This document shows positions 33,059 through 59,683 of a stretch of 64,000 nucleotides of DNA, piece after piece (positions within the stretch are counted from its first letter, which is position 1; each line of letters opens with the position of its first letter). The stretch comes from Sumerlaeia bacterium. Its GTDB lineage: Bacteria; Sumerlaeota; Sumerlaeia; SLMS01; JAHLLQ01. The notes beneath the pieces were generated by a model. It searched no databases. It saw nothing but the letters and a program-made list of their open reading frames with translations, and had not been told where the DNA came from. The stretch is from contig JAVJSW010000001.1 in assembly GCA_040219255.1 (NCBI GenBank), positions 37,250 through 101,249 on the forward strand. Reading direction: 5' to 3'. Both the position numbers and the translations under genes were made by a program.

Positions 33059-33064
33059 GGGACG

Positions 33065-33754: not shown

Positions 33755-34066
33755 CCATTTCTCGCTCCTTTCGGCACTTCGCGTTCGCATCCCTTACTTC
33801 ACCACCGAGAGCCCTATTCACCGCCCCGGCGGAAAAATCGGCGGCGCCCATTGATTGCGCCCCTCGATCCGATTTTCGCCCCTGTTTTTTCGCCTCTATT
33901 CGTCTCGCCCTTTCCGCCAGTGGTCAAGCTCAGCCGACACCCGCCGAAGCCTTTTCTTTCGCCCTTTCCCCCTTGACAGATCGGCCCGCCTTGCCTTCCC
34001 CTTTTCCCTAGCTCCTGGCTCCGCTCCAACTCGCGGCCCGCCAGGCATAAGGGAAAGACTCCGCAG

Positions 34067-37554: not shown

Positions 37555-37728
37555 AATCGGACCTCGTGTCTCTTTGATAAATTTTTCAGGCTACGAATGC
37601 CGATGAAATCGTTTATTCCAGCCGCCGGATCAAGCTGGAAAAGCTCCCACTTCCCCCTTGCCGCGCACCGGAAATCAGAGTCTATGAGTCACCGATTCGA
37701 TCCCACAGGAAAGACTAGGCCTCCCCTC

Positions 37729-41713: not shown

Positions 41714-42205
41714 TTAGCGCTTCATGTTTTCGAAGGACAGCGGCCGCTCATAGTCGGCATCCTTGAGCAGCGCGATGACCTGCTGCAAGTCGTCGATCTG
41801 CTTGCCTTCGACGCGGACCTGGTCGCCCTGGATCGAGGTCTTGACCTTCAGCCCGCTGTCCTTGATGCGCTTGGTGATGTCTTTGGCGGTCTCTTTGTCG
41901 AGACCCTCGTGCATCTTGGCGTTGATGCGGATGGCGCCCAGGGAAGCGTCCTCGCGGTGCTCCCAGTCGAAGGTCTTCATCGAGACGCCCTGATCGTTGA
42001 GGGAACCGAGGACGATCTCGCGCACCGCCTTCAGCTTCATCTCGTCGGGCACGACCACCAGCAGTGTCTTGGTTTTCTTGTTCAACTCCAGCGTCACGTC
42101 GACGCCCTTGAAGTCGTAGCGCTGGGCGATCTTGCGGTTCGCCGTGTTGATGGCGTTGTCAACGAGCTGCAGGTCCGGTTTACAGACAATATCGAAAGTC
42201 GGCAT
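41714..42205 (-). CDS. yajQ: YajQ-family nucleotide (c-di-GMP)-binding protein (UPF0234)
   Basis: 163 aa; MPTFDIVCKPDLQLVDNAINTA...YDFKGVDVTLELNKK: full-length match to YajQ family. Confidence 0.85.
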   Translation of the reverse strand: MPTFDIVCKPDLQLVDNAINTANRKIAQRYDFKGVDVTLELNKKTKTLLVVVPDEMKLKAVREIVLGSLNDQGVSMKTFDWEHREDASLGAIRINAKMHEGLDKETAKDITKRIKDSGLKVKTSIQGDQVRVEGKQIDDLQQVIALLKDADYERPLSFENMKR

Positions 42206-43513: not shown

Positions 43514-43981
43514 TCAGTAAACCCAGGGAACGAGCAGCTTCGTCCGAGCCGCCCAGGCGGCGTGCCGGGGACCAAAGGCTTGCCCCAGAAGGCGATCCTC
43601 GAGCCTAGTCTGCTGAACGACGCAGGCAACCGCCAGCAGCCACAATCCCCACGCCAGACCATCCCCCGCCAGGCCTGCGAATCCTGTCAGCATCACCAGA
43701 TCGCCCAAATACATCGGGTGCCGCACCCAACGCAGCAGCCCCCCGCCGGTCACCAGTTCGGAGGGCCGGCCAAGGGCGCGGGCCTTGCGCTTGAGAATGA
43801 CGTAATGAGAAAGCTCGATCGATCCCCCCGCCACCGCCAGCCCGGCTCCCGCGGCATAGGGCGGCGCCAGCAACTCTCGGCCGAGCGGGATGCCCGGCAC
43901 CCCCATCGAGGCCGCGGCGCCATAGCCGATCAGGCCCAGGCTCAGCCCCAACTTGGCCCACCAGGCGGGCGATGCGCTCAT
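43514..43981 (-). CDS. Isoprenylcysteine carboxyl methyltransferase (ICMT/PEMT)-family membrane methyltransferase
   Basis: 155 aa, 3-4 TM, RHPMYLG motif typical of ICMT/NnrU family. Confidence 0.7.
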   Translation of the reverse strand: MSASPAWWAKLGLSLGLIGYGAAASMGVPGIPLGRELLAPPYAAGAGLAVAGGSIELSHYVILKRKARALGRPSELVTGGGLLRWVRHPMYLGDLVMLTGFAGLAGDGLAWGLWLLAVACVVQQTRLEDRLLGQAFGPRHAAWAARTKLLVPWVY

Positions 43982-45258
43982 GCTTCGACGGTGGTGTGGC
44001 CGCTGGCGCCGCCGGTGCGCTCGATCAGGATCAGCGTCAAATCGTCGTGCGGCACTTCCCCGCGAATGTGAGAGGAAACATCGCCGGTCACAAGGTCGAG
44101 CGCTTCCTCCAGATCCATGTCGCCGGTGACCGACAGGAGCGAAATCAGTCGTTCCGTGCCATAGGTTTCCCCCGAACCGTCCCGGCCATGGAGGATTCCG
44201 TTCGTCATCAGAATCAACCGGCCTCCGATGGGAAGCGTGCTGAGCGAATCGTGATAGGTAATGTCATCGAAGATGCCGAGTGGTGGGCCGCCGGCGGGTT
44301 CGAGAAGGTCCGCCCGGTCTTCCTCCGGCAGGTGCAGGATGGGCGAGGGATGACCCGCCGCGGAGTGCACCAGAGTGCCCGATTCCGGGTCCACAACGGC
44401 GATATAGCAGGTCATCAGCTCCTCGGAGTCGAAGGTGCTCAGGAGGGTCTTGTTCATTTCCTGGAGGGTTTGCGCCGGGGAAAGCCCCCGCGCCAGCACG
44501 CACCGCAACACCGCCTGGGCCATGGCGGAATGCACCAGGGCCTGCAAGCCCGAGCCCTTGACATCCCAGACGACGTAAGCCACGCGCCCGTCGGGCAGCG
44601 CCAGCGCACCATACCCATCGCCCGATCCATCGCGCCCGCTGGCCTCGAAGTAAACGACTGAGCGCAGGTTGCGGAATTGAGGCAAAGCCTCTGGAATCAG
44701 CCGACTGCGCACACGCGTCATCTGCTCGCTCTTGCGGTCCAGCGTGGCCCTCGCCTCCGCCAACCGGTCATGCAAAAACTTGATCTTCAGGTGCGAAGCG
44801 ACTCGCGCGGAGAGGAGTTGGGGATCGACCGGCTCGAAAAGGAAATCGTCGGCTCCGGCTTCCAGACCGGTGGCCCGGGCGGCGAAATCCTCGTCCGAGA
44901 CCAGCATCAGGATCGGCAGATTTTGCCCCCGGCCCTGGCGTTTGCGCAGCTCTCGGGTCACATCCGCCGGGCGATTGTCTGAAAGTCTGCTGGGCAACAG
45001 GACCAGATCCGCCCCTTGACGCCCCACCTGATGCACCACGTCGTCGCCGTTCACACAGCACAGGACGTCGTAGCCGTTGGCCTGGAGCGTAGCCTTCATC
45101 AGCGCCGAGTCGGGAGTTAACGTATCCACCAGGACGACGCGATGCTTCGCCGATTGCAGATCGCCGGTCGTATTGGCGGGGAAAGGGGTCGGTACACTCA
45201 AGGCTATATCACGCCCACGATGGTCAGGAAGGATAATGAGAATTGTCGCCGAGGCCAA
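43978..45258 (-). CDS. Response-regulator receiver-modulated PP2C (SpoIIE/RsbU-type) serine phosphatase
   Basis: 426 aa; N-terminal REC-like domain then SpoIIE domain (VVWDVKGSGLQA, ILMTNG); stop overlaps start of downstream methyltransferase (ATGA-type overlap). Confidence 0.8.
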   Translation of the reverse strand: MASATILIILPDHRGRDIALSVPTPFPANTTGDLQSAKHRVVLVDTLTPDSALMKATLQANGYDVLCCVNGDDVVHQVGRQGADLVLLPSRLSDNRPADVTRELRKRQGRGQNLPILMLVSDEDFAARATGLEAGADDFLFEPVDPQLLSARVASHLKIKFLHDRLAEARATLDRKSEQMTRVRSRLIPEALPQFRNLRSVVYFEASGRDGSGDGYGALALPDGRVAYVVWDVKGSGLQALVHSAMAQAVLRCVLARGLSPAQTLQEMNKTLLSTFDSEELMTCYIAVVDPESGTLVHSAAGHPSPILHLPEEDRADLLEPAGGPPLGIFDDITYHDSLSTLPIGGRLILMTNGILHGRDGSGETYGTERLISLLSVTGDMDLEEALDLVTGDVSSHIRGEVPHDDLTLILIERTGGASGHTTVEA

Positions 45259-45607
45259 AGACCTTGAGCAACCGGGTCATCCTGAGGACATCCAGGACTT
45301 TCGGCGAGGGATTGACGAGCGAGAGCACCGTGCCCTGATGACGCAAGTGCTGGCGCAATCCCACCAGTACGCCGAGGCCGCTGGTGTCGAGAAAGGGCGT
45401 CTCCGACATGTCCAGGAGAACCGCCTTGGGCTGGCGCGCCGACGCGTCCATCACCATCTCGCGCAGGTCCGAGCAAGTGTCGGCGATCAGTTCGCCAATC
45501 ACGCGTATCTGCAGCGTCTCCTTGTTGCCTTCCAACACCAGTTCCACGCTTGATCGGAGCCCCCGTTGGGAGAAAGATCGAATCGTTGCCATGGTCGCCG
45601 TCGACAT
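45224..45607 (-). CDS. STAS-domain anti-sigma-factor antagonist (SpoIIAA/RsbV-like)
   Basis: ...LDMSETPFLDTSGLGVLVGL: conserved phosphorylatable Ser (DTSG) loop; start chosen at Met about 45607 (track ORF extends to 45700). Confidence 0.7.
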   Translation of the reverse strand: MSTATMATIRSFSQRGLRSSVELVLEGNKETLQIRVIGELIADTCSDLREMVMDASARQPKAVLLDMSETPFLDTSGLGVLVGLRQHLRHQGTVLSLVNPSPKVLDVLRMTRLLKVFGLGDNSHYPS

Positions 45608-45711
45608 GGTCAAATCATAGCCGAACATCGGGCGAAAAAGGCCCGTCGTCAACCGCTTAGTCAAGCGCCTCCAATCCCATCCCACCGGTTTGTCCGGCAA
45701 CGAACATCGCC

Positions 45712-48627: not shown

Positions 48628-50301
48628 TTAGAAGGTGGGCTTGTCCACCGACTCGACAGTGATGCTACGCAGCGTGATCGAGGGATTCTGGACCGAGCCG
48701 GCGCCACGAAGGTCGTAGACGTCGAAGCCAAGGTCGAGCGGCGAGCCGTTCGCCCCATCCGGAACCACGAAGAAGGCCTGATAAGACTCACCGTCCGCAT
48801 CGGGGGCATCGGCCGGATCCGAGGCGGTCGAGTTCAAGGACAGATCGCCCACGAAGTCGTTGTTGCCGGCCGCGAAGCGCAGACGCACCACGGGAAGCTC
48901 GGCGGGAACCGCGTCCGCGGAGACGACCATCGTCACGCGGTAGAGCTTCGACGAGTTCGCCGTGCCGATGTTCAGGACGTCCCAGAACCCGTAGGAGAAG
49001 GCGCCGATGCTGAAGTCGGCGGGTCCGGCGCTGGTGACCTGAAGGCCATCGGCGGTGGCGGTCAGCGTCGCGCCGGGCAGCGCGCCGCCGGCGTCGACCG
49101 ACGTGTTGTTCCAGCCGTTCGTGTTGCTGCCGGAGAAGTCGGCGGAGTACACGGGGGCGAAGGTGCCCAGGGCGGCCGGATCGATCACGCGCTCCGTCAG
49201 GCGGGCGAGCGTGATGCTCTCGTTGGCCGAACCAAGACCGATCTGAAGGATGTCCATCGCGATGTCGAAGCCGGAGCGGCCACCGACACTGTCGGCCACA
49301 TGGGCCGGAACGGTGGAGACCACCGAATAGGTCTCGCCGTCGCCGTCGGGCGTGACGATGATGTTGTTGTTCGGGTCCGAGTCCTGGAAGAGGACGCCGG
49401 TGCCGCGGAAAGTATCGGCGGAGTTCAGACGCACACGTCCCGGAGGAACCGCGCCGCCGGAGGTCGAAGAGCTGACTTCGAAGGTGTTGTAGTAGATCAC
49501 ACCCTGCGGGGGCTGACCGAAGGCATCGGTCGTGAAGCCCGAGTCCCAGGTACCGAAGGAGAGGTCGCGATTCTTGGACAGAATCCGCAGACCGGCGCCC
49601 GGTACGGCGTTGCCTTCCGGCAGGTTGCCGGCGGGCAGAATGCCGTTGTAAGTCCAGGTTCCGGCGCCATTCACCTCGAAATCCGTAACCGACGGGAACG
49701 CTCCCGCCACCACGTTGACCGTGATGGTGTCGCCGGCCGGGCGGGTTTCGCCCTGGGCGTTGAGCGAGTTGCCGCTGGCATCGGAGATACCCAGCAGACC
49801 GGTGTTGTTGTCGATGGCGGAGACCAATTCCACAGCCACGTCACCGGTGCCCGAACCGGTCGGGATGCTGACGGTGGCGACGCGCTGGCTGGCGCTGGCG
49901 TTGAAGGTGGAAATGGGGTTGTTGCTGGTCGAATAAATCACCCCGCGGAACTCGATCACGTTGCCCGTGATCGTTCCACCGGAGACTCCGGTCCGATCGA
50001 GCTTCTCGTTGAACACGTAGGTGAACGTGCCGGCGAGACTGGGATCGATGGCCGAGGTGGCGTTGGCGAAATCGAGAAGAGCCCCATCGGCCTGCTCGAT
50101 TCGCAAAGTGAAGTTCACACCCGCCACGCCTTCCGGCACGTTCTCGACGAAGATGTCGAGATCGAGGGTGGACAACGGCCGAACTTCGACCGAATCGCTC
50201 CCGAAGGAGAAGTCGTATGCCTGGGCCGAAGTGGCCGCCAGGCAGGTAGCGGCACCGGCAAGGGCTAATGCCTTGATGGACCTACGCGCCATTCGCTTCA
50301 T
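48628..50301 (-). CDS. Hypothetical secreted Gly/Thr/Ser/Asn-rich beta-rich protein
   Basis: Signal peptide MKRMARRSIKALALAGAATCLAATSAQA from Met about 50301; no catalytic motifs recognised. Confidence 0.55.
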   Translation of the reverse strand: MKRMARRSIKALALAGAATCLAATSAQAYDFSFGSDSVEVRPLSTLDLDIFVENVPEGVAGVNFTLRIEQADGALLDFANATSAIDPSLAGTFTYVFNEKLDRTGVSGGTITGNVIEFRGVIYSTSNNPISTFNASASQRVATVSIPTGSGTGDVAVELVSAIDNNTGLLGISDASGNSLNAQGETRPAGDTITVNVVAGAFPSVTDFEVNGAGTWTYNGILPAGNLPEGNAVPGAGLRILSKNRDLSFGTWDSGFTTDAFGQPPQGVIYYNTFEVSSSTSGGAVPPGRVRLNSADTFRGTGVLFQDSDPNNNIIVTPDGDGETYSVVSTVPAHVADSVGGRSGFDIAMDILQIGLGSANESITLARLTERVIDPAALGTFAPVYSADFSGSNTNGWNNTSVDAGGALPGATLTATADGLQVTSAGPADFSIGAFSYGFWDVLNIGTANSSKLYRVTMVVSADAVPAELPVVRLRFAAGNNDFVGDLSLNSTASDPADAPDADGESYQAFFVVPDGANGSPLDLGFDVYDLRGAGSVQNPSITLRSITVESVDKPTF

Positions 50302-50615
50302 GAGATACTCCTCTGAATCATTCTCTCTGCCACATCGTCTCCAATGAGGCGGAGGAAAAGCAAGACCAGGATTCATGCTTTCGCATTTCTCTCTTACCGT
50401 TCCCCTTCGCCGAAGCGTGAGTCAAGCTTGAACAGCAAGTGAGTGATGGGGTATCTAACCTTTTTCCCCAAGTGGATGGCAAGCCAGAAAGACCATCGCA
50501 GGGAATAAGTTCAGTACCCTACTTTCTATTTCTGGACCAACTCCCCCCTGTGTCAACCCACACTTCCATTTTTCTCCACCCTTCCCCGCCAATCTCAGCC
50601 ACCCATCCAGAACGT

Positions 50616-51764
50616 TCAGGGAGCGGGCTCCACGATTTCCGCCAGCTTCTCCGCCAGAACCCGCACCTCCTCGACGCCTGTCAGGTGACTTAGGGAAATC
50701 CTCAGCCCTCCCCGGGCCCGCTCCTCATCCCCGGGAAACATCGACGCCAGAACCGGCGAAACCGACACCACGCCGGTCGAGCAGGCGGCTCCCGGCGAAA
50801 CGGCGCAACCCCGCCCGTCCAGGGCGATCGCCAAATCCGTGGCGGCGATGGGGCCGAAGGAGAGGTTCAACACCCCTGGCAATCGGGGGGCCTCCCCATT
50901 GCGCCGGCAAATCACCCCGAGGTCCGCCAGCGCCCGCAGAAAAGCCTCCTCCAACCGATGCACCGCTCGGGTCCGCGCCTCCCGCTCTTCGCACGCCAGT
51001 TCGAGCGCCCGCGCGCAACCGATCGCCAGAACCACCGGCTCCGTGCCGCCCCGGATTTCGCTCTCCTGACTGCCCCCTGTGACCTGCGGGACGATCGTCT
51101 GCAAGTCTCGGCCCGCCAGGAATCCAATCCCCACCGGCCCATAGAACTTGTGCGCCGCCCCAAAGGCGAAATCCGCCCCCAGCGCGTCCAGACCCAGCGG
51201 CACTTTCCCCACCGACTGAGTGACGTCGCACAGCCAATGGGCGCCCAGTTCGGCGGTCCATCCCGGAATGCTTTCCACATCCTGCAAAACACCCGTTTCA
51301 TTGTTGCTGTGCATGACACAAATAAGATCGGGAGGACTATTCACTTCTGCAATCCATTTTGATTCCGGAATACAAATCCGACCATTCGCTCCCGCTTCCA
51401 TCCAATGGGGGACAACGCTTCCGCGCTCCGCCATCCCCGCCAGCGTCTTCTCGACACAGGAGTGTTCGAGGGCGGAGGCCCAGACCCGCATCGGCCGATC
51501 CAGAGTTTGCGCGAGGCCCCGGATCGCCAGGTTCGCCGCCTCTGTGGCACCCGAGGTGAAGACGAGATGATTGGGGTCTTCGATTCCGAGGCAAGCGGCC
51601 ACGCGCTCGCGCGCGTCTTCGAGCAGCATGCGGGCGCGCTGGCCCAGGCGGTGCGTGCTCGAGGGGTTCAGGGGCAGGCCCTGGATCGCCGCCATCGCTT
51701 CCCAGACCCGGGGATCGAGGGGGGTGGTGGCGGCGTGGTCAAAGTAGTGGAGCGGGATGGGCAT
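50616..51764 (-). CDS. Cysteine desulfurase (NifS/IscS-family class-V aminotransferase)
   Basis: 382 aa; PLP lysine block GAHKFYGPVGIGFL, SGATEAANLAIRG, C-terminal active-site Cys loop. Confidence 0.85.
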   Translation of the reverse strand: MPIPLHYFDHAATTPLDPRVWEAMAAIQGLPLNPSSTHRLGQRARMLLEDARERVAACLGIEDPNHLVFTSGATEAANLAIRGLAQTLDRPMRVWASALEHSCVEKTLAGMAERGSVVPHWMEAGANGRICIPESKWIAEVNSPPDLICVMHSNNETGVLQDVESIPGWTAELGAHWLCDVTQSVGKVPLGLDALGADFAFGAAHKFYGPVGIGFLAGRDLQTIVPQVTGGSQESEIRGGTEPVVLAIGCARALELACEEREARTRAVHRLEEAFLRALADLGVICRRNGEAPRLPGVLNLSFGPIAATDLAIALDGRGCAVSPGAACSTGVVSVSPVLASMFPGDEERARGGLRISLSHLTGVEEVRVLAEKLAEIVEPAP

Positions 51765-51918
51765 CGGCGATCCTCGAGAAATTGGCGCTTGGGGAAAATC
51801 AGGCTTTGGACTTGCGACGGAAATTGGTGGGCAGGCAGCTTAGCGTTCCGAAACTCGCGGTGCGCCCGACTTGGCGATGGGGGTGACGTGCCGGGTTCTT
51901 CACCCGGTCCAAAAGTTC

Positions 51919-53955
51919 ATGAAGCCACTCGATCAAAAGCTTATCAACCGGCTCCGTAAGATGGGGGCTCTGGACGGCGAACAGTCGGACCTGGTGACTC
52001 GGCGTACCGAGGAATCGGGCCTGCCCGCGCAAACGGTCCTCGATGCCCTGGGGATCGTCGAACCGAAAATCGTGGCGCGCCAGGTCGCGCGCCTCAGCGG
52101 ACTCGAGTTTCTGGACTTGGACGCTTTCGAACCGGCCCCCGAAGTTCTGCGCCAACTCCCCACGGAGCTGGTACAGCGTTACGCCGTGCTGCCCGTCGGC
52201 GAAGTCGGCGGTGATTTGATCCTCGCCGTCTCCGACGCCACCAATGTCCTCAAGATCGACGAGTTGAAGGCCCTGACGGGTCGCACCCTGCGGGTCGTGC
52301 TGGCGACGGAGAAGTCGATCCGGCGGGCCCTGGCGCTCTATTACAGCGTCACTCCGGCGGAGGAGGCGTTGTCCTCGCGCCGCAGCCGGACGCCCCAGCC
52401 GGAGTTCCGTTCCGAAGAACGCGAGCTCACCACGCGCGGCCGAGATATTCACGAGGTCGCCACCGTTTTCGACGCCACGCCCGCACCGGCGCCAGGCAAA
52501 GCCGCCGGGCCCGAGCGGCCGCCCGAAGCACCCGAAGCGCCCCAGGCTGGCACCTCGGCCAGCGAGTCCAGTTCGGACAGCGAGACCGAAGACATCAGCT
52601 TTCACGACCTGGAAACGCGCATCGATATGGGGTCGAAGGAGACGCGCCTGGACATGCCGGGCAGCTTGCCGCCGGACGCCATTCCCGTGGCCGGGTCCGC
52701 AAATTCCGCCTCCACCGAACTGCTTTCCGTCGGCGACGCCCAGACCTTTCTGGACCCCGCCGCACAATCGACCCGCATCGCCTCGCCGGAGAAGACCAGC
52801 CACAAGAACGGCTGGATTCGCCTCGCCATCGAGAACGACTCCGACCTCGAAGTCCTCAAGACGGTGGAAAAGGTTCTGGAAGAGGCTTTGGAATTCGGCG
52901 CCGAGGAAATCGAGCTGGCGCCGCCTACCGGCCCCGACGTCATCGTCCGCGCCCGCAAAGCCACCTCGTGGATCGATCTGCACAGCTACAATCCCCGCCT
53001 TCACGAGCCCGTGGTGGCGCATCTCCGCAAGATGTCGGGCTTACCAGCCGCCGAGCGGGAAAGCCACGACCTCCTCATCGAGCGGCGCTTCGACCTCTCG
53101 ACGCGCCGCGGAGAAGTGCCTGTCGTCGCCCACTTCGCCACCACCGTCCGGGGCTCGCGGTGCCTGCTCCGTCTGCCGGAAAACACGCCGCTGCTTCAAC
53201 GCCCGCTGCGCATCCTCGGCACCGACAACGATTTGCAGAAACGCATCGGCGAACGACTGGACAGTGGCGCCGGCGGAGCGATTTTCTTCTCCGCCACCAC
53301 CCAGCGCATGGCCGCCCAGCTCTTTTCCTCGCTTCTGCACGAACAAGCCTCGCGCGGGCGGTCGGTCATCGCGCTCGAAATGGGCGAGAGCCGCACCATT
53401 CCCAACGTGTCGCAGATCTCCTGTGAAGACGCTCCCGCGCTGCTCGACAACCTGCATCACGCCAGCAAGGAAAACCCCGATGTACTCGGCGTTTCCTCCA
53501 TCCCCGACGTGAAGACGATGCGCGAGGTCCTGAACCTGGCGCTCCAAGGCCAGACCATCGTGGGCGCTTTCAGCGCGCCCGACGCGTCCTCGGGCATGGC
53601 GATCTACGAGGCCGCCGGTCTCGACCCGCTCGAACTCTTCCGCGGCATCGTCGCCCACATTCACGCCAGCCAGGTGCCGCGCCTGTGCAGCCGCTGCCGC
53701 GCGGAAATGGAAGATCCCGCCGGCGTCTTCGTTTCGCCCTGGGCCGAGGCCTTCAAGGACCTGCCCCTCTACGAAGCGAAAGGCTGTCCCGACTGTCGCA
53801 ATACCGGCCGCAAGGGCAGCAATTGGGTGGCCGAAGCGTTCGTGCCCCGCTCGGAACCGGAAGGCGAGCGCTTCCGCCAGGTCCGCCACCGCGAAACGGC
53901 CCTGCGCCAGCTCGTGCGCGAGGCTTGGCTCGACCCGCGCGACATCCGCTCGTAG
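51919..53955 (+). CDS. GspE/PilB-family secretion-ATPase paralogue with degenerate (predicted inactive) Walker A/B and His boxes; retains N-terminal T2SSE_N domain and C-terminal tetracysteine Zn motif
   Basis: N-term T2SSE_N-like (LINRLRKMGALDGEQSDL...LVQRYAVLPV); core aligns to GspE but GPTGSGKSTT is replaced by SATTQRMAAQ, Walker-B Glu by Ser (VLGVSSIPD), His-box (TGHLVLSTLH) by GQTIVGAFSA; CSRC...CPDC retained. Confidence 0.7.
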   Translation: MKPLDQKLINRLRKMGALDGEQSDLVTRRTEESGLPAQTVLDALGIVEPKIVARQVARLSGLEFLDLDAFEPAPEVLRQLPTELVQRYAVLPVGEVGGDLILAVSDATNVLKIDELKALTGRTLRVVLATEKSIRRALALYYSVTPAEEALSSRRSRTPQPEFRSEERELTTRGRDIHEVATVFDATPAPAPGKAAGPERPPEAPEAPQAGTSASESSSDSETEDISFHDLETRIDMGSKETRLDMPGSLPPDAIPVAGSANSASTELLSVGDAQTFLDPAAQSTRIASPEKTSHKNGWIRLAIENDSDLEVLKTVEKVLEEALEFGAEEIELAPPTGPDVIVRARKATSWIDLHSYNPRLHEPVVAHLRKMSGLPAAERESHDLLIERRFDLSTRRGEVPVVAHFATTVRGSRCLLRLPENTPLLQRPLRILGTDNDLQKRIGERLDSGAGGAIFFSATTQRMAAQLFSSLLHEQASRGRSVIALEMGESRTIPNVSQISCEDAPALLDNLHHASKENPDVLGVSSIPDVKTMREVLNLALQGQTIVGAFSAPDASSGMAIYEAAGLDPLELFRGIVAHIHASQVPRLCSRCRAEMEDPAGVFVSPWAEAFKDLPLYEAKGCPDCRNTGRKGSNWVAEAFVPRSEPEGERFRQVRHRETALRQLVREAWLDPRDIRS

Positions 53956-54041
53956 GCCCGCCTTCAGGCGGAAAGTTGAGCAGTGAAAGTTGAGCAGTGC
54001 GTGTTCTCCCCCACCAGCCACTCTTCGGCCCATTCTCTGCA

Positions 54042-54087
54042 AGAACGAAAAACCCCCGGCCGCGACCTTGTGGTCCGCGGGCGGGGG
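54042..54087 (-). terminator. Intrinsic terminator after pyruvate dehydrogenase operon (minus strand)
   Basis: On minus strand: cccccgcccgcggacc-acaa-ggtcgcggccggggg hairpin followed by TTTTTCGTTCTT. Confidence 0.6.
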
Positions 54088-54134
54088 CTGGGGATTATTG
54101 CTCGGACTTCTTCGCCGGGCGGCGGGGCCTTGAA

Positions 54135-55466
54135 CTACACCAACATCAGGAACGGATCGTCGAGCGCCGCCTTGAGGTCCTTGAGATAAGCCGCCGCGAC
54201 GGCCCCATCGACGACCCGGTGGTCCGACGACAGGGTCATGTTGAAGACCTTGCCGACGTCCAGGCCACCATTGCGGACGACGGGCTTTTCGAGCACCGCG
54301 CCAACCGCCAGAATGCTGGTCTCCGGCGGGTTGATGATGGCATCGAAGTGATCGATGCCGAACATGCCGAGATTGCTGATGGTCTGAACGCCGCCGGACA
54401 TTTCGGCCGGCTTCAGGCCCTTGTCGCGCGCTTTGCCGGCCAGTTCCTTCAGGTCCTGTGAAATCTGCACGACGCCCTTGCGGTCGGCGTCGCGGATCAC
54501 TGGCGTGACCAGACCTTCGGGCAGCGCCACGGCGCAGGAAATGTGCACCGCGTCCTTGCGGACCATCGTGTTGTTGGCTTCGTCCCATTGGGTGCGCAGC
54601 CACGGATGGCGGCGCAGGGTATTCGCCATGGCCTTGATGATGAAGTGGGTCACCGTGACCTTCTCGTCGGTCAGGTCGCGCACCTTCTTGACGGCGGCGA
54701 GAACGTTAGCGGCGTCCACCTCCACCGTAAGGCTGAAGGACGGCACCTGCTGGCGGCTCTGGACGAGGCGCTTGGCGATGACGCTGCGCATGCCGGAGAC
54801 GGCGAGTTCTTCGTCGCCGCTGGCCGATTCCACCGCGACGGGCTTGCTCTTGACCGGGCTGGCGACGTCTTTGCCTTCGGCGGCGCCATAGCCGCCGGGG
54901 GCCGCGGCCGGGGAGGCCTTGCCGGTGCCGGACTGGAGAGCCTTCTCGATGTCGCGCTTCACGACGCGGCCGCGGGGGCCCGAGCCTTCGATCTGCTTCA
55001 GGTCCAGATCGTTGTCCGACGCCATCTTACGCGCGAGCGGGCTGGCCATGACGGAGCCATTGGAGGCCGCCGCCGGAGCGGACTTTTCTTCCTTGGGGGG
55101 AGCCGGTGCCTTGGCCACAGCCTGCGCCGGCTGCGCCTTGGCGGCCGGTTTGTCTTCCGGAGCCGCTTCCTTCTTCTCTTCCTTCTTGGCCGCCGCACCG
55201 CCGGAGGAAGCCGACGACACGTCTTCGCCGGCCTCGCCCACAAGGGCGATTTCATCGCCAACGCTGGCTTTATCGCCTTCCTTCACCGACAGCTTCAGCA
55301 CGGTGCCGTCTTCAAAGGCTTCCTGTTCCATGACAGCTTTGTCGGTTTCGATTTCGGCCAGGATATCCCCGGCGGAGATCGAATCGCCCTCCTTCACGAG
55401 CCACCGCACGATCGTGCCTTCGCTCATGGTGGGCGACAATTGGAGCAGAGTCACTGGTGTTGCCAT
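54135..55466 (-). CDS. pdhC: Dihydrolipoamide acetyltransferase (E2) of pyruvate/2-oxoacid dehydrogenase complex
   Basis: 443 aa; lipoyl domain (EIETDKA), Ala/Pro linker, E3-binding domain, catalytic domain DHRVVDG. Confidence 0.9.
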
Positions 55467-55526
55467 AAGGGTCCCATTCCGTTTTCTACATAGGGGGTCG
55501 AGCGTATCGGGTTGATGGAGCAGCGC

Positions 55527-56516
55527 TTAGCTGATGTAGGACACTTGCTTGACGGCCTCCACGACGTCCACCGGGCGAGGAAGAGAAATCTCCTCGAGGT
55601 TGAACGCGTAGCTCAGTGGCACGTCCTTCTGATATACCCGGGCGATTTCCGCGTCCAGGTAATCGAAGCAGCGCGCGTACATTTCGCTCGCGATCCACGC
55701 GCCAACGCTCGCCTTGGGCCAGCTTTCCTCCACCACGACGCAGCGACCGGTCTTCTTGACCGAGTTCGTCAGCGTCTCGAAGTCCAGCGGCGACAGGCTC
55801 CAGCAGTCGATGATTTCGCAACTGACGCCGAATTCGCCCTCCAGGATTTCCACCGCCGGCTCGACCACATGCGTCAACATCCGGCTCCACGTGATGATCG
55901 TCACGTCGGTGCCTTCCTTGTGGACGTTGGCCTTGCCGATGGGCAGGACGTAGTCGGGGTCTTCGTTCACCTCGCCACGCGAATTGTAGAGCTTCTCCGA
56001 CTCGATAAAGATCACCGGGTCGGGGTCACGGATGGCGGCTTTCAAAAGCGCCTTCGCGTTGTCCGGCGTGGAAGGCATGACGACCTTGATGCCCGGAATG
56101 TGAACGTATTGCTGTTCGAGCGACTGGCTGTGCTGGCTGCCGAGGCTGCCGCCGGCGCCGCCCGGCCCGCGCAGAACCATGGGCACTTCGATCTGGCCGC
56201 CGGACATCTGCCGCAGCTTGGCCGCGTTGTTGATGATCTGGTCGAGGGCCAGGATCGCGAAGTTGAAGGTCATCACTTCGATCACGGGGCGCATGCCGAC
56301 GTGGGCGGCACCGATGCCGAGACCCACGAAGCCCGCTTCCGTGATCGGTGCGTCGACGACGCGCTTCTCGCCGAATTTTTCCAGGAGACCCTGGGACACC
56401 TTGTAGGCGCCCTGGTACTGGGCCACTTCCTCGCCCATGAGGAAAATCTGATCGTCGCGCTCCATCTCCTGGGCCAAGGCCAAGCCGAGCGCTTCGCGGA
56501 AAGTCATTTCTGCCAT
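55527..56516 (-). CDS. pdhB: Pyruvate dehydrogenase E1 component beta subunit
   Basis: 329 aa full-length match to transketolase-like E1-beta (MAEMTFREAL..., GIGAAHVGMRPV). Confidence 0.9.
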   Translation of the reverse strand: MAEMTFREALGLALAQEMERDDQIFLMGEEVAQYQGAYKVSQGLLEKFGEKRVVDAPITEAGFVGLGIGAAHVGMRPVIEVMTFNFAILALDQIINNAAKLRQMSGGQIEVPMVLRGPGGAGGSLGSQHSQSLEQQYVHIPGIKVVMPSTPDNAKALLKAAIRDPDPVIFIESEKLYNSRGEVNEDPDYVLPIGKANVHKEGTDVTIITWSRMLTHVVEPAVEILEGEFGVSCEIIDCWSLSPLDFETLTNSVKKTGRCVVVEESWPKASVGAWIASEMYARCFDYLDAEIARVYQKDVPLSYAFNLEEISLPRPVDVVEAVKQVSYIS

Positions 56517-56576
56517 GTTGTTCTCATGTACTCCGTCTGGAAGGTCGCAAACTGGGAAAAGGGGACTCGCCGGCTC

Positions 56577-57680
56577 TTAGCGGAATTCGCCGTCGGGGCC
56601 GATGTAGCCAGGGTAGTCGATGTAAACGTCGCTCCAGATTTCCCGATCGTTGGGGAACGGCGAGTCCTCCGCGAACTTGATCGCGTCCATCACTTCCTCT
56701 TTGATTTCCTTCTCCAACGCCTCGACCTTTTCCTCGGGGAACAGATCGGGGTATTGGGCTTCCAGACGCTTCATCGGGTCGCGAAGCTGCCACTGCGACA
56801 CTTCGTCCTTGGTCCGGTAGGTCTTCGCCGGGTCGGACATCGAGTGTCCGCGATACCGATAGCACACAGCGTTGATAAAGGTCGGGCGCCCTTCTTCGAT
56901 CGCGATGGTGCGCGCTTCGTCGATGGCGGCGTACATCTCCAGCACGTCCATGCCATCAACCTTCACGCCGCGAATGCGGTACGCGCCCGGCGTGCGCAGG
57001 TGCAGCTCGGGCTCGGCACTGGCGCGATGCACCGCCGTGCCCATGCCATACAGGTTGTTCTCGACGATGTAGATCACCGGCAGGTTCCACAACGACGCCA
57101 TGTTGAGGCTCTCGTGGAAGACGCCCTGGTTCATGGCCGCTTCGCCCATGAAACAAACCGCAACGGCCTTTTCCTTGTTGTACATCAGCTTCCAGCCCAC
57201 ACCGGTGGCCAGCGGCACATGGCCGCCGACGATGCCGTTGCCGCCCATCATTCCGTGGCTGACCTTGAACATGTGCATCGAACCACCCTTGCCTTTGGAG
57301 CAACCGGTGGCTTTGCCGAACAATTCGGCCATCACTTCCCGCGAGGAGCAGCCTCGGATCAAAGCCTGGCCGTGATCGCGGTACGTCTGGAAAATGTAAT
57401 CTTTCTCGCCAAGAGCGGCGACCGTGCCGACACCGACGGCTTCCTGACCGATGTACAGGTGGCAGAAGCCTTTGATCTTGCCCATCTGGTACTGCTGGGC
57501 GCACCGCTCCTCGAAGCGGCGGATCAGGAGCATCTGACGGTACATTTCCATCAGCTTCTCCGCGGGGAGATCGACTCGGGGCTTGGGGATTGCGGACTGG
57601 GAGTCCGACACTTCGGACGAAGACGGGCTTTTGGCGTTCTTCGCCTTATCCTCTGCTTGTGCGCTCGTGGCCATAGGCAT
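56577..57680 (-). CDS. pdhA: Pyruvate dehydrogenase E1 component alpha subunit (TPP-binding)
   Basis: TPP motif GDGA-like block (CFMGEAAMNQG...NN.YGMGT), phosphorylation-loop region; start at Met about 57680 (track ORF to 57734). Confidence 0.9.
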   Translation of the reverse strand: MPMATSAQAEDKAKNAKSPSSSEVSDSQSAIPKPRVDLPAEKLMEMYRQMLLIRRFEERCAQQYQMGKIKGFCHLYIGQEAVGVGTVAALGEKDYIFQTYRDHGQALIRGCSSREVMAELFGKATGCSKGKGGSMHMFKVSHGMMGGNGIVGGHVPLATGVGWKLMYNKEKAVAVCFMGEAAMNQGVFHESLNMASLWNLPVIYIVENNLYGMGTAVHRASAEPELHLRTPGAYRIRGVKVDGMDVLEMYAAIDEARTIAIEEGRPTFINAVCYRYRGHSMSDPAKTYRTKDEVSQWQLRDPMKRLEAQYPDLFPEEKVEALEKEIKEEVMDAIKFAEDSPFPNDREIWSDVYIDYPGYIGPDGEFR

Positions 57681-58061
57681 CCTTTCGAATTCCGGACAGG
57701 CCGCGCTGGGCGGCCCGCGACACAGGTCCGGCAAAATGAGAACGTGTCATCAAAAAGGCGGGATCATTGCGCAAAGCCAGATGGGCCTGCGACCGCCCCC
57801 GCGGGCCGCCAGAGCAAGAGTCGTGCAGACCACCCCGGCATCCAGCGGCGCACTTTCGCACAATCCAACGGCCCACGATACGGGCCACCCGATCGCGCGA
57901 AAGAACCAGGGGAATTTACGGATCGCTCAAAACGCAACGCAACCGCGAAATGCGTCCGCGGGCGCGAAGGTGTGTGGAAAGGCTTTTTCGGAAACAGAGG
58001 GAAAGCGTCGTCGCGTCGCTTGCCGAAGGGTCCAAAGTCCGACGGCGGGCGCGGGGGGACG

Positions 58062-58159: not shown

Positions 58160-59683
58160 TTACATCGGGAAGTCGGAGCCGGCTTCGGGAGCCGGATCGA
58201 AGGGGGCGGAGTCGCTGGTCTTCAACGTCGGCTTGATGACGATGGTGACCTTGGTGGTGGTGGTGTCGAAGACGGTTTCGCTGAAGAGCGGGTTGATGAT
58301 CGGGATGTCTTTGAGGATCGGAATGCCGGTGCGGCTCTCGACCGAGTTCTGCTTGTCCAGGCCGCCGATGACGAGGGTTTCGCCGTTGCGGATGTTGGCC
58401 ACGGTGGAGAGATCGCGGCTCGCGATGATCGGAATGTCGGCTTCCTTGCTGAAGCCTACGAGGCTGTTCACGACGACGTCGATGTCGAGGGTCATGCTTT
58501 CGGTGCCGATGAAGGAGAGCAGTTCGACCTTCACGCCTTCGAAGGCGTCGTCGACCACTTCGTTGAACTCGTTGAGGGAGTTGGTGGCGCCGATGTCGGG
58601 CTGCCAGACGGAGTAGGGAATGGCGCGGGTGGAGGAGATAACGGCTTTGTCGCCAGTGGCGGTGCCGCGGAGACCGCCGGCGAGGCCGCCGGGGACGTCT
58701 TCGCTGTTGACCATCGTGATCCGGGTCTTGGTGAGCACCTTGCTGTCGCCGGTCTGAACGGTGTAGTTCAGCAGTTCGGCGGCAATGCGGGCGTCAAAGG
58801 TCAGGATCGTGTCGTAGGTGGCGATTTCCTTATCGAAGAGGCCGGTGGTGCTGCCGGTGGCGGAGTAGCCGAAGGTACCCGTGACGGCGCGGCGGAAGGA
58901 ACCCCAGTCGAGGCCGAGGGCGCCGTTGTCGCCCACTTCGGTCTCGTAGATGGTGACTTCGAGTTCGACTTGCAGCGGGGGCTTGTCGAAGAGTTCGAGA
59001 GCGATGATATCATCGGCGATGTCGGTCGGGTTTTCCACGATGTAGATCGTGTTGGTGGAGTCATCGGCGAAGGGCGGGAAGAGGAACACGCCGACGTTGC
59101 CGAGTTCGGTGGCGCCAAGAATGGCGGTCAACTCGGAGGCGGTGCGGTGCTTGCCGACGTAGGCCACGGCGCCGGGGCCGCCGCCGAAGTCCTTGCCGGT
59201 CGCGTCGAAGAACCGGAAACCGGGGCGGTCGGTCTTCTCGACGATTTCGGTGATGTAGGGCTCCATGAAGTCGGGCATCGTGACGAACAGGTACTGGACA
59301 ACGCGTCCACTGGCGTCCTTGACGTCGTTGGCGCCCATGACTTCCGCGATGCCGCCTTCGTACGCGAGGGTGCGCAGAAGGTAGGACTGAATCTCGATGG
59401 CTTCGGCGTTGTAGATTTCGTACACCTTGCCGATGTAGTTGTTCTTGGCCAAGCCGGGGGCAGGACGGGTCAGATCGCTGGTCTCGCGCTCCAGCGTGTC
59501 GATCGTATCGAGGTAGTAGCGGGGAATACCGCTCGCCTTCACGTTATTGAAGTCGGCGGTGGGGCCGCGGCGATTCGTTTGGATTTCGTTGGTTTGTTGG
59601 GAGAAACCAGTCGCGGCGAGAGTGAGCGCGGCGGCGGAGAAAAGGGCCGCCCGGGTTGAGGAGACTTTGAGAGTCTGCTTCAT
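58160..59683 (-). CDS. Secretin (GspD/PilQ-family outer-membrane channel), short form
   Basis: 507 aa; signal peptide; C-terminal secretin domain (NGETLVIGGLDKQNSVESRTGIPILKDIPIINPLF...VTIVIKPT). Confidence 0.8.
   Translation of the reverse strand: MKQTLKVSSTRAALFSAAALTLAATGFSQQTNEIQTNRRGPTADFNNVKASGIPRYYLDTIDTLERETSDLTRPAPGLAKNNYIGKVYEIYNAEAIEIQSYLLRTLAYEGGIAEVMGANDVKDASGRVVQYLFVTMPDFMEPYITEIVEKTDRPGFRFFDATGKDFGGGPGAVAYVGKHRTASELTAILGATELGNVGVFLFPPFADDSTNTIYIVENPTDIADDIIALELFDKPPLQVELEVTIYETEVGDNGALGLDWGSFRRAVTGTFGYSATGSTTGLFDKEIATYDTILTFDARIAAELLNYTVQTGDSKVLTKTRITMVNSEDVPGGLAGGLRGTATGDKAVISSTRAIPYSVWQPDIGATNSLNEFNEVVDDAFEGVKVELLSFIGTESMTLDIDVVVNSLVGFSKEADIPIIASRDLSTVANIRNGETLVIGGLDKQNSVESRTGIPILKDIPIINPLFSETVFDTTTTKVTIVIKPTLKTSDSAPFDPAPEAGSDFPM

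What the first reader, a model, noticed from the sequence alone, without database searches (positions are those of the whole stretch)
51919..53955. Catalytically dead GspE/PilB-like secretion ATPase (pseudo-ATPase) retaining N1 and zinc-finger elements
Residues align with GspE/PilB throughout the core. The alignment is clearest over the Asp box, the region around Walker B and the His box, and the C-terminal CxxC...CxxC. However, the P-loop is replaced (SATTQRMAAQ), the Walker-B catalytic Glu is Ser, and the His-box histidines are lost. The N-terminal T2SSE_N-type domain (often a c-di-GMP-binding MshEN module) and a long low-complexity linker are retained. This looks like a regulatory pseudo-enzyme derived from a secretion ATPase. 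It is encoded near an orphan secretin (58160-59683) and a YajQ c-di-GMP-binding protein elsewhere in the window.
Basis: seen in the sequence. Interest (0 to 1): 0.6.

Follow-up and report, generated by a model that had tools for sequence, protein, structure and literature searches.

The report
Conserved dead PilB-like motor protein
This gene encodes a well-folded copy of the motor ATPase that builds type IV pili, but every residue needed to bind or burn ATP is gone; about 25 related protein clusters, mostly from the uncultured phylum Sumerlaeota, share these losses, so it is a conserved non-enzymatic relative of unknown role and not a broken gene.

Summary
Window 51919-53955 (+) encodes a 678-aa protein with three parts. 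The first is a PilB-type N-terminal domain (Pfam MshEN, E=6e-22). The second is a disordered linker of about 150 aa. The third is a PilB/GspE core (Pfam T2SSE, E=2e-10; Foldseek to PilB 5TSH, E=2.6e-25, TM 0.75-0.77). The four zinc-binding cysteines are kept. Walker A (ATTQRMAA; Lys->Ala465), the Asp box, the Walker B catalytic Glu (Ser527) and both His-box histidines (Gln545, Ser552) are lost.

It is not a pseudogene. An exhaustive search found about 25 clusters at 26-40% identity with the same losses. They also share new conserved residues (R463, R492, H582, W608, a DPRD tail) and a short conserved motif in the linker. Named members are Sumerlaeia MAGs, plus one labelled Poribacteria.

The c-di-GMP suggestion is not supported. 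Both glycines essential for binding are replaced (Gly11->Ile, Gly40->Gln), and no family member has Gly at either position. The secretin and YajQ genes exist but are not syntenic in any relative.

In the sister clade the gene is immediately followed by an extended RadC gene in 7 of 7 loci. This window and its clade lack that neighbour (0 of 4).

The most likely role is a non-catalytic adaptor or regulator; this is inferred, not shown.

The parts
51919..53955 (+). Complete gene for the 678-aa PilB-like pseudo-ATPase, stop codon included. It is identical to the NCBI MAG protein RLY93_00305 ('hypothetical protein', Sumerlaeia bacterium).
51919..52368 (+). N1D (GSPII/MshEN fold), aa 1-150. This is the most PilB-like part: about 31% identity to canonical PilB, against about 22% for the core. 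pLDDT is above 92.
51937..52008 (+). Degenerate c-di-GMP motif I equivalent, aa 7-30 (KLINRLRKMGALDGEQSDLVTRRT). In V. cholerae MshE numbering: R9->K, G11->I, L25->S, L29->T, Q32->T.
52024..52095 (+). Degenerate c-di-GMP motif II equivalent, aa 36-59 (PAQTVLDALGIVEPKIVARQVARL). R38->P, G40->Q, Q61->L.
52369..52833 (+). Disordered acidic linker rich in Ser, Ala, Pro and Glu, aa 151-305 (net charge about -10). Its length and sequence vary among family members.
52594..52626 (+). Short conserved motif inside the linker, aa 226-236 (ISFHDLETRID; family consensus ISxxETxFE). AF2 predicts a short helix here (aa 228-231). It is a candidate partner-binding motif.
52834..53208 (+). N2D-equivalent domain, aa 306-430. 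It carries family-invariant W351, near-invariant H362 and the 'LRFPENxPLLxxPL' motif. The canonical PQDGR arginine-finger motif is replaced by LIERR.
53209..53952 (+). C-terminal RecA-like domain of PilB/GspE type without catalytic motifs, aa 431-678. About 40 aa of the canonical C-terminus are missing.
53293..53316 (+). Walker A equivalent ATTQRMAA, aa 459-466. It has no glycines and the Lys is Ala465. This position is never K or R in the 26 aligned sequences. R463 is conserved within the family (22 of 26).
53377..53394 (+). Asp-box equivalent EMGESR, aa 487-492 (canonical EDPVEY). Only the first Glu is kept. R492 is conserved within the family (24 of 26).
53473..53508 (+). Walker B equivalent NPDVLGVSSIPD, aa 519-530 (canonical DPDVxMVGEIRD). 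The catalytic Glu is Ser527 and the Arg is Pro529.
53545..53583 (+). His-box equivalent QGQTIVGAFSAPD, aa 543-555. The two histidines are Gln545 and Ser552. No sequence in the alignment has His at either position.
53656..53796 (+). HxH (H580, H582) followed by the retained tetracysteine zinc module (C590, C593 ... C623, C626). The family-specific 'LPxWA' element lies between the cysteine pairs and includes W608.
53932..53943 (+). Family-specific C-terminal 'DPRD' tail motif, aa 672-675.

Best explanation
The gene encodes a conserved, lineage-specific pseudo-ATPase that evolved from a type IVa pilus extension ATPase (PilB). Four things are shown. First, the protein keeps the three-part PilB architecture and fold: N1D, N2D and a RecA-like C-terminal domain with the tetracysteine zinc module. 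Second, every nucleotide-binding and catalytic element is replaced: the P-loop glycines and lysine, the Asp box, the Walker B glutamate and both His-box histidines. Third, the same losses are shared by about 25 protein clusters at 26-40% identity. Fourth, the family has gained conserved residues of its own (W351, H362, R463, R492, H582, W608, a DPRD tail) and a conserved short motif in a long disordered linker. The rest is inferred. The protein probably cannot bind or hydrolyse ATP and probably works by binding partners. The well-preserved N1D is the part of PilB or GspE that contacts cofactors such as PilZ or GspL. Together with the zinc-module face of the core, it could let the protein dock where a real motor docks, or bind the motor's partners. 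The linker motif and the remodelled, arginine-lined former active site would then provide new binding surfaces. It would therefore act as an adaptor, decoy or regulator of a type IV filament machine, or recruit another protein to it. In the sister clade that protein is probably the RadC-family DNA-binding protein encoded immediately downstream. In this window's clade the gene stands alone, so its partner cannot be read from the locus. Canonical c-di-GMP sensing by the N-terminal domain is unlikely.
For: Homology and fold: Pfam MshEN E=6e-22 and T2SSE E=2e-10; PDB phmmer E=5e-26; AF2 pLDDT above 90 for both folded modules; Foldseek to PilB 5TSH E=2.6e-25 with TM 0.75-0.77, with PilT, PilU and DotB much weaker at about 1e-13. 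Motif loss. Family: an exhaustive phmmer search over 1.84 billion representatives gave members at E=1e-109 to 1e-37 that align through the C-terminus. None of the 26 aligned sequences has K or R at the Walker A lysine position or His in the His box. Cysteines are kept in 24-25 of 26, H582 in 26 of 26, W608 in 25 of 26, R492 in 24 of 26 and R463 in 22 of 26. The linker motif ISxxETxFE is conserved. The N1D is closer to canonical PilB (about 31% identity; 55.6 bits over 116 aa) than the core is (about 22%; 35 bits over 330 aa). This fits retained partner binding with a remodelled core. Neighbourhood: an extended RadC gene lies immediately downstream on the same strand, sometimes overlapping, in 7 of 7 independent clade-B loci. 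It scores above the NCBIfam RadC cut-off (258.8 against 180). Precedent for nucleotide-free PilB acting as a signal: the M. xanthus PilB Walker A K327A mutant up-regulates EPS (review PMC11656802). The window also carries a type IV pilin-like gene and a secretin, so the organism has type IV filament parts.
Against: No binding partner, oligomeric state or phenotype is known, so the mechanism rests on inference from retained and lost surfaces. The gene is not in an operon with pilM, pilC, pilT or gsp genes in the window or in any of the 11 distinct homologous loci. A link to a pilus machine is therefore not supported by context. The RadC neighbour is absent from this window and from its clade (0 of 4 loci; tblastn found no hit in the window, L001 or L002). 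Whether this genome has a canonical PilB could not be tested. The 64-kb window has none, and the rest of the MAG was not available. Non-canonical nucleotide binding cannot be excluded by sequence alone.
Confidence: 0.6

Rival explanations
1. It is a c-di-GMP receptor. The MshEN-type N-terminal domain binds c-di-GMP and the dead ATPase core transmits the signal.
For: The N-terminal four-helix region keeps the exact register and the 5-residue spacer of the two 24-residue motifs, and several hydrophobic positions are kept (L10, L14, G18, G47). The MshEN fold is predicted with confidence. A YajQ-family protein is encoded about 10 kb away.
Against: No match to the strict or the relaxed published motif. 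Gly11 is Ile and Gly40 is Gln, and no aligned family member has Gly at either position. Gln32 and Gln61 are replaced, and Arg38 is Pro, Ser or Thr. In V. cholerae MshE, G11I abrogates binding, and G11L and G40I show little or no binding. XpsE carries similar changes and has lost binding (PMC5013675). YajQ is not syntenic in any homologous locus.
Confidence: 0.08
2. It has left pilus biology altogether. It would be a structural partner of a RadC-type DNA-processing protein, acting as a ring or scaffold in DNA repair or in handling of incoming DNA, and would no longer contact a type IV filament machine.
For: The only conserved gene neighbour in the family is an extended RadC (7 of 7 clade-B loci, often translationally coupled). 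That protein has HhH motifs and a C-x5-C-x2-C-x5-C loop resembling the endonuclease III Fe-S loop (Pfam EndIII_4Fe-2S E=0.012 and 0.026, below cut-off). No pil or gsp genes flank any family member.
Against: The window's clade lacks the RadC neighbour (0 of 4), and no RadC was found in the 64-kb window. The best-conserved module is the PilB N1D, whose known role is to contact pilus or secretion cofactors. RadC's own function is unknown, so this reading adds little mechanism.
Confidence: 0.22
3. It is a decaying pseudogene, or a recently inactivated pilB copy with no function.
For: All catalytic motifs are lost. The gene stands alone between housekeeping genes. NCBI annotated it only as 'hypothetical protein'.
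Against: The 678-codon ORF is intact and has the codon bias of its neighbours (GC3 0.82). About 25 clusters at 26-40% identity share the same losses plus newly conserved residues and motifs. AF2 gives pLDDT above 90 for both modules. The zinc-binding cysteines are retained in 24-25 of 26 sequences.
Confidence: 0.03
4. It is still an NTPase or nucleotide-binding protein that uses a non-canonical site. For example, the conserved R463, R492 and H582 might bind phosphates.
For: New arginines are conserved exactly where the P-loop and the Asp box used to be (R463 in 22 of 26, R492 in 24 of 26). These could coordinate an anionic ligand.
Against: The glycine-rich loop that forms the phosphate-binding turn is gone. 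No acidic catalytic residue is conserved at the Walker B position: only 2 Glu and 1 Asp among 26 sequences. The His box and the N2D arginine-finger motif are also lost. No ASCE ATPase is known to work without these elements (general knowledge of the fold).
Confidence: 0.07

Closest known systems
Type IVa pilus extension ATPase PilB/PilF (for example G. metallireducens PilB 5TSH, M. xanthus PilB, T. thermophilus PilF)
   Same: Same domain order (N1D GSPII/MshEN, linker, N2D, RecA-like CTD), the same fold and the same tetracysteine zinc module. These are the best matches by sequence and by structure.
   Different: No Walker A, Asp box, catalytic Glu, His box or PQDGR arginine-finger motif. About 40 C-terminal residues are missing. 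The linker is about 150 aa against a few tens of residues. The scores fall far below the equivalog cut-offs (98.5 against 675.65 bits). The gene is not in a pil operon.
Type II secretion ATPase GspE/XpsE
   Same: The core aligns over residues 303-642 (TIGR02533 E=1.9e-21). Like Xanthomonas XpsE, the N1D has lost the glycines and glutamines needed for c-di-GMP binding.
   Different: GspE is catalytically intact and is encoded in gsp operons with GspL and GspF. The N1D here is closer to PilB than to GspE.
Non-hydrolysing partners of filament motors: TadZ (Tad pili) and ArlH/FlaH (archaellum). This comparison is from general knowledge and was not tested here.
   Same: The concept is the same: a P-loop-fold protein that has lost hydrolysis and serves as an organiser or regulator next to a PilB- or FlaI-type motor.
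   Different: TadZ is related to ParA and MinD, and ArlH is related to RecA and KaiC and still binds ATP. Neither is derived from the PilB/GspE motor itself, and neither carries an N1D or a zinc module.
M. xanthus PilB acting as a signalling protein in its nucleotide-free state (Walker A K327A)
   Same: This shows that a PilB unable to bind ATP can still have a regulatory output, namely EPS up-regulation (PMC11656802; PMC5544727 listed).
   Different: That is an engineered mutant of a working motor. Here the loss is natural, complete and fixed across a family.
Other degenerate PilB/GspE-like proteins seen in this search (P0049 Falkowbacteria, P0086 Gaiellaceae, P0119 Oscillospiraceae, and others)
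   Same: They also lack the Walker A lysine, the catalytic Glu and the His box while keeping the zinc cysteines.
   Different: They keep a glycine-rich P-loop with Lys replaced by Arg (GSGRT). Their core is 27-41% identical to canonical PilB but only about 20-25% to this family, and they branch separately in the tree. They are most likely independent degenerations.

Membership tests
PilB/GspE secretion and pilus ATPase superfamily (Pfam T2SSE, PF00437) | Significant sequence and fold similarity of the N2D plus CTD core | tested here: met
   T2SSE 40.3 bits against a cut-off of 24.9, E=2e-10. Foldseek to PilB E=2.6e-25, TM 0.75-0.77.
PilB/GspE secretion and pilus ATPase superfamily (Pfam T2SSE, PF00437) | Walker A P-loop GxxGxGK[ST] | tested here: not met
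   The aligned segment is ATTQRMAA. No [AG]xxxxGK[ST] occurs anywhere in the protein.
PilB/GspE secretion and pilus ATPase superfamily (Pfam T2SSE, PF00437) | Asp box (EDPxE) and Walker B with the catalytic Glu (hhhhGEhRD) | tested here: not met
   EMGESR and NPDVLGVSSIPD. The catalytic Glu is Ser527 and the Arg is Pro529.
PilB/GspE secretion and pilus ATPase superfamily (Pfam T2SSE, PF00437) | His box (TGHxVxSTxH) | tested here: not met
   QGQTIVGAFS. Neither position is His in any of the 26 aligned sequences.
PilB/GspE secretion and pilus ATPase superfamily (Pfam T2SSE, PF00437) | Tetracysteine zinc motif CxxC...CxxC of the extension-ATPase subgroup | tested here: met
   C590, C593, C623 and C626 are present, and kept in 24-25 of 26 aligned sequences. 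Zinc binding itself was not tested.
PilB/GspE secretion and pilus ATPase superfamily (Pfam T2SSE, PF00437) | ATP hydrolysis and hexamer formation | not testable with these tools
   This needs biochemistry, or at least multimer modelling.
Type IV-A pilus assembly ATPase PilB (TIGR02538 equivalog) and T2SS GspE (TIGR02533 equivalog) | Score above the curated equivalog cut-off | tested here: not met
   98.5 against 675.65 bits for PilB, and 76.3 against 630.25 bits for GspE.
Type IV-A pilus assembly ATPase PilB (TIGR02538 equivalog) and T2SS GspE (TIGR02533 equivalog) | Encoded with platform or partner genes (pilC, pilM, pilT, or gspF, gspL) | tested here: not met
   The flanking genes are a class-V aminotransferase and a 2-oxoacid dehydrogenase operon. 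No pil or gsp partner flanks any of the 11 distinct homologous loci.
MshEN c-di-GMP receptor domain | GSPII/MshEN fold at the N-terminus | tested here: met
   PF05157 E=6.2e-22. The TIGR02538 N-terminal region aligns to residues 7-150. pLDDT is above 92.
MshEN c-di-GMP receptor domain | Two tandem 24-residue motifs RLGxx[LVI][LVI]xxG[LVI][LVI]xxxxLxxxLxxQ separated by 5 residues, including Gly11 and Gly40 | tested here: not met
   The register and spacer are kept, but each motif matches only 4 of 11 strict positions and there is no relaxed-motif match. Gly11 is Ile and Gly40 is Gln, and no aligned sequence has Gly at either position. These substitutions abolish or severely reduce binding in V. 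cholerae MshE.
MshEN c-di-GMP receptor domain | Measured c-di-GMP binding | not testable with these tools
   This needs ITC or DRaCALA on residues 1-150.
Pseudoenzyme (a conserved non-catalytic homologue of an enzyme family) | Catalytic residues absent in all orthologues, not only in one sequence | tested here: met
   In the 26-sequence alignment the Walker A Lys position is never K or R and the His-box positions are never His. The catalytic Glu position holds Glu in 2 of 26 and Asp in 1.
Pseudoenzyme (a conserved non-catalytic homologue of an enzyme family) | Maintained by selection: intact ORFs, a conserved fold and family-specific conserved residues | tested here: met
   Full-length ORFs in about 25 clusters. 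Invariant or near-invariant W351, H582, W608, R492 and the cysteines. A confident AF2 fold. A formal dN/dS test was not run because no close orthologue pair is available.

The most novel reading that the evidence does not exclude
The family is a previously undescribed kind of component: a PilB motor turned into a non-enzymatic adaptor. Its ancestral job would be to pair with an extended RadC/HhH protein carrying an Fe-S-loop-like motif, encoded immediately downstream in the sister clade. The pair would physically couple a type IV filament or DNA-uptake machine to cytoplasmic DNA processing. In the window's clade the pair has been uncoupled genomically. If true, this would give the first mechanistic handle on RadC. 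It would also be the first natural 'dead motor' subunit described for type IV filament systems.
Probability: 0.18. Interest if true: 0.7.

Novelty: new variant of a known kind. Interest (0 to 1): 0.5.

Why it matters
PilB/GspE motors are among the best-studied bacterial ATPases, and regulation of pilus extension is an active field. I found no description of a natural, conserved, fully catalytically dead PilB paralogue. The 2024 review of PilB cofactors does not mention one, and four full-text searches found none. Public annotation calls family members 'hypothetical protein' or 'PilB-like ATPase'.

A dead motor that keeps its docking domain is a plausible built-in regulator or adaptor of type IV filament machines. 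The tight pairing with an extended RadC in the sister clade offers a testable lead on RadC, whose function remains unclear. The search also shows that loss of catalysis has happened several times independently in this ATPase family. Automatic annotation as 'ATPase' therefore overstates function for a number of metagenomic proteins.

The impact is limited for now. The hosts are uncultured Sumerlaeota, and nothing is known experimentally.

Tried and rejected
- The search for related loci on genome contigs, with the family alignments A2 and A3, failed twice because no conserved stretch was long enough. I could not survey GTDB genomes or ask which species carry the gene.
- The profile search with the search for homologous proteins returned only canonical PilB/GspE and none of the family members. 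Its word index is the likely limit. The family was found only by the exhaustive search.
- I looked for an intact paralogue. tblastn with three canonical PilBs against the window and all 12 loci hit only the pseudo-ATPase genes.
- I looked for the RadC partner in the window, L001 and L002 by tblastn and found no hit.
- Literature searches for PilB/GspE pseudo-ATPases or pseudoenzymes found nothing relevant. Searches for pili in Sumerlaeota were also uninformative.
- The promoter and terminator scan of 51600-54300 found no promoter-like site and one terminator-like site, fewer than expected by chance.
- PADLOC gave no defence-system match for the protein or for the RadC partner.
- The mis-alignment explanation was rejected, because no P-loop pattern occurs anywhere in the protein.
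- The pseudogene explanation was rejected on family conservation.
- The profile-profile comparison is not independent, because both alignments contain the target. I used it only to view the consensus motifs side by side.
Full report
**1. What is at the coordinates**

Window 51919-53955 (+) is an intact ORF of 678 codons plus a stop. Its third-position GC is 0.82, like that of neighbouring genes. A longer reading from a TTG at 51871 is possible. The protein is identical to RLY93_00305, a 'hypothetical protein' of a Sumerlaeia MAG, on a 157.8-kb contig. Sumerlaeia is a class of the candidate phylum Sumerlaeota.

**2. Homology and fold**

- Pfam finds MshEN (residues 61-145, E=6.2e-22) and T2SSE (307-668, E=2e-10, 40.3 bits against a cut-off of 24.9).
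- NCBIfam models for PilB (98.5 bits) and GspE (76.3 bits) match but fall far below their equivalog cut-offs of 675 and 630 bits.
- Against PDB sequences, the best matches are T. thermophilus PilF (E=5e-26), M. xanthus PilB (2e-25) and Geobacter PilB.
- An AlphaFold2 model built with the family alignment has pLDDT above 92 for residues 1-150 and above 90 for most of 305-678. Residues 155-301 fall below 50.
- Foldseek places the core on G. metallireducens PilB (5TSH, E=2.6e-25, target-normalised TM 0.75-0.77). PilF, GspE and BfpD follow. The retraction ATPases PilT and PilU, and DotB, are much weaker at about 1e-13.

The protein is therefore a PilB-type extension-ATPase homologue with N1D, a long disordered linker, N2D and CTD.

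**3. The catalytic motifs are gone**

The evidence comes from alignments with nine canonical PilB/GspE proteins, the HMMER alignments to PDB chains and indexed checks.

| Element | Canonical | This protein |
|---|---|---|
| Walker A | GPTGSGKT | ATTQRMAA (459-466); no glycine; Lys->Ala465 |
| Asp box | EDPVEY | EMGESR; only the first Glu kept |
| Walker B | DPDVxMVGEIRD | NPDVLGVSSIPD; catalytic Glu->Ser527, Arg->Pro529 |
| His box | TGHLVxSTLHTND | QGQTIVGAFSAPD; His->Gln545 and Ser552 |
| N2D arginine-finger motif | PQDGR | LIERR |
| C-terminus | full length | about 40 residues absent |
| Zinc module | CxxC...CxxC | retained (C590, C593, C623, C626) |

No [AG]xxxxGK[ST] pattern occurs anywhere in the protein.

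**4. It is a family, not a wreck**

The word-indexed search found only the protein itself plus ordinary PilB/GspE at 20-30% identity. The exhaustive phmmer search over 1.84 billion cluster representatives found more. It returned about 25 clusters (P0020-P0043, P0045) at E=1e-109 to 1e-37 and 26-40% identity. These align to the very C-terminus.

Across the 26-sequence alignment:
- The Walker A lysine position is never K or R.
- The His-box positions are never His.
- The catalytic Glu position holds Glu in only 2 sequences and Asp in 1.

New features are conserved instead:
- W351 (invariant) and H362 (near-invariant)
- an 'LRFPENxPLL' motif
- R463 (22 of 26) inside the former P-loop
- R492 (24 of 26) inside the former Asp box
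- H582 (26 of 26) just before the first CxxC
- 'LPxWA' with W608 (25 of 26) between the cysteine pairs
- a C-terminal 'DPRD'
- the four cysteines (24-25 of 26)

The otherwise unalignable linker carries a short conserved motif, ISxxETxFE. It reads ISFHDLETRID at residues 226-236 here, and AF2 puts a short helix there (aa 228-231). Together these are the marks of a protein kept by selection for a non-catalytic job.

The three members with a Sumerlaeia label are the window's own protein and two MAG proteins (KF858_08335 and SF028_02210); a fourth MAG is labelled Candidatus Poribacteria. Some JGI copies are auto-annotated 'PilB-like ATPase'.

**5. The c-di-GMP idea**

The published MshEN binding determinant is two copies of RLGxx[LVI][LVI]xxG[LVI][LVI]xxxxLxxxLxxQ separated by five residues (PMC5013675). 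The target has both copies in exact register (aa 7-30 and 36-59). Each matches only 4 of 11 strict positions, and neither matches the authors' relaxed pattern.

In V. cholerae MshE numbering the changes are R9->K, G11->I, L25->S, L29->T, Q32->T, R38->P, G40->Q and Q61->L. The same paper reports that G11I abrogates c-di-GMP binding. It also reports that G11L and G40I show little or no binding, and that XpsE has lost binding through similar changes. No aligned family member has Gly at position 11 or 40. Canonical c-di-GMP sensing is therefore unlikely, although only a binding assay can settle it.

**6. Genomic context**

In the window the gene is divergent from a class-V aminotransferase gene (50616-51764, minus strand). 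It is convergent with a 2-oxoacid dehydrogenase E2/E1-beta/E1-alpha operon (54135-57734, minus strand). The secretin (58160-59683) lies beyond that operon. It matches GspD, PilQ and MshL models only weakly, below all cut-offs. YajQ lies about 10 kb upstream at 41714-42205. A type IV pilin-like gene lies inside the ORF 36880-38346. The 64-kb window has no pilB, pilT, pilC or pilM.

I examined 12 loci around family members, one of which (L010) duplicates another (L009); that leaves 11 distinct loci. None has a secretin, YajQ or pil/gsp partner nearby. One association is striking. All 7 independent loci of the more distant clade (L003-L009) have, immediately downstream on the same strand and sometimes overlapping, a 365-498-aa RadC-family gene. 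It scores 258.8 bits against NF000642, whose cut-off is 180. It has an N-terminal extension of up to about 275 aa. That extension contains a C-x5-C-x2-C-x5-C loop resembling the endonuclease III Fe-S loop. The Pfam hit to EndIII_4Fe-2S is only sub-threshold.

The window's own clade (window, L001, L002, L012) lacks this neighbour in 0 of 4 loci. tblastn finds no RadC in the window, L001 or L002. A neighbour-joining tree, without bootstrap, recovers the family as one group with these two clades.

**7. Most likely mechanism**

What is shown: the fold, the loss of every catalytic element, and conservation as a family with new conserved surfaces.

What is inferred: the protein neither binds nor hydrolyses ATP and acts through binding. 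The N1D is the module that in PilB and GspE contacts cofactors such as PilZ or GspL (review PMC11656802). It is the part that has stayed closest to real PilB:
- N1D: about 31% identity; 55.6 bits over 116 residues
- Core: about 22% identity; 35 bits over 330 residues

This pattern fits a protein that still docks to a PilB partner while its core has been re-purposed. The conserved linker motif and the arginine-lined former active site are candidate new binding sites.

I therefore favour an adaptor, decoy or regulator associated with a type IV filament machine. In the sister clade it probably works with RadC. The M. xanthus result that a Walker A mutant PilB, in its nucleotide-free state, signals EPS production is a precedent for output without catalysis. 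I put 0.6 on this overall statement. Most of that rests on the pseudo-enzyme part (about 0.9). The specific pilus link is much weaker because no operon context supports it.

**8. Rivals**

- A RadC-centred role unrelated to pili: 0.22.
- A c-di-GMP receptor: 0.08.
- A non-canonical nucleotide binder: 0.07.
- A decaying pseudogene: 0.03.

**9. Comparison with known systems and novelty**

The protein works least like an enzyme and most like known non-hydrolysing motor partners such as TadZ in Tad pili and ArlH/FlaH in the archaellum (general knowledge, not tested here). Those have different evolutionary origins.

It fails membership of the functional PilB and GspE equivalogs and of the c-di-GMP-binding MshEN class. 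It remains a member of the T2SSE superfamily by homology. I found no description of a natural PilB-derived pseudo-ATPase.

The top 150 hits also contain other PilB-like proteins without the Walker A lysine, from Falkowbacteria, Gaiellaceae, Oscillospiraceae and unnamed sources. These keep a glycine-rich loop with Lys replaced by Arg, and they branch nearer to canonical PilB. Loss of catalysis has therefore recurred in this superfamily.

I rate this a new variant of a known kind, with interest 0.5. It is a solid, well-supported pseudo-enzyme family with a suggestive RadC link. It sits in uncultured organisms and has no functional data.

Noticed in passing
L003:12178-13647, L004:2799-4295, L005:12105-13202, L006:10416-11834, L007:11824-13272, L008:4868-6355, L009:7841-9328: In the sister clade of the family, an unusually long RadC-family gene (365-498 aa) lies immediately downstream of the pseudo-ATPase gene in 7 of 7 loci, sometimes overlapping it. 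It combines RadC JAB, UPF0758_N/HhH and an N-terminal extension of up to about 275 aa with a C-x5-C-x2-C-x5-C loop like the endonuclease III Fe-S loop. This neighbour is absent from the window's clade.
   Followed up: partly
proteins P0049, P0084, P0086, P0089, P0104, P0119, P0121, P0126 (not in the window): These are other PilB/GspE-like proteins without a Walker A lysine. The named ones come from Falkowbacteria, Gaiellaceae and Oscillospiraceae. They have Lys->Arg in an otherwise glycine-rich P-loop and have lost the catalytic Glu and His box. They appear to be independent degenerations, and the annotated ones (P0049, P0084, P0086, P0119, P0126) are labelled as ordinary ATPases. P0053 and P0066 form a distant sister group of the target family.
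   Followed up: partly
protein P0002 (not in the window): The best word-index hit is a partly degenerate PilB-like protein. Its P-loop is GSVESGKT, its Walker B is VGEIKE, and its His box is lost (AGITVLSTFCWND). It may be an intermediate state of degeneration.
   Followed up: no
window 24758-33790 (-): A 1916-aa protein with DUF3686 ('ATPase involved in DNA repair'), DUF7902 and an AAA domain is followed by two ORFs (704 and 241 aa) with no Pfam match. PADLOC gives only a marginal mad8 hit (E=9e-4). This could be an uncharacterised multi-gene system.
   Followed up: partly
window 36880-38346 (+): This 488-codon ORF shows a prepilin N-terminal methylation motif and a GspG/PilA-like helix only from about residue 285. 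The real type IV pilin-like gene probably starts near 37700, and the upstream part may be a separate or mis-joined ORF.
   Followed up: partly
window 58160-59683 (-): A stand-alone secretin gene (507 aa) lies between an alpha/beta hydrolase gene and the 2-oxoacid dehydrogenase operon, with no pilMNOP or gsp genes next to it. It matches GspD, PilQ and MshL models about equally and below all cut-offs.
   Followed up: partly
window 48628-50376 (-): A 582-aa ORF with gene-like codon bias (GC3 0.81) has no match in Pfam, NCBIfam or PADLOC. It lies two genes upstream of the finding.
   Followed up: partly
window 43978-45700 (-) and 19795-20811 (+): These are partner-switching signalling parts: a REC-SpoIIE (PP2C) phosphatase next to a STAS-domain protein, and a second SpoIIE phosphatase beside a histidine kinase (17893-19665).
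   Followed up: no
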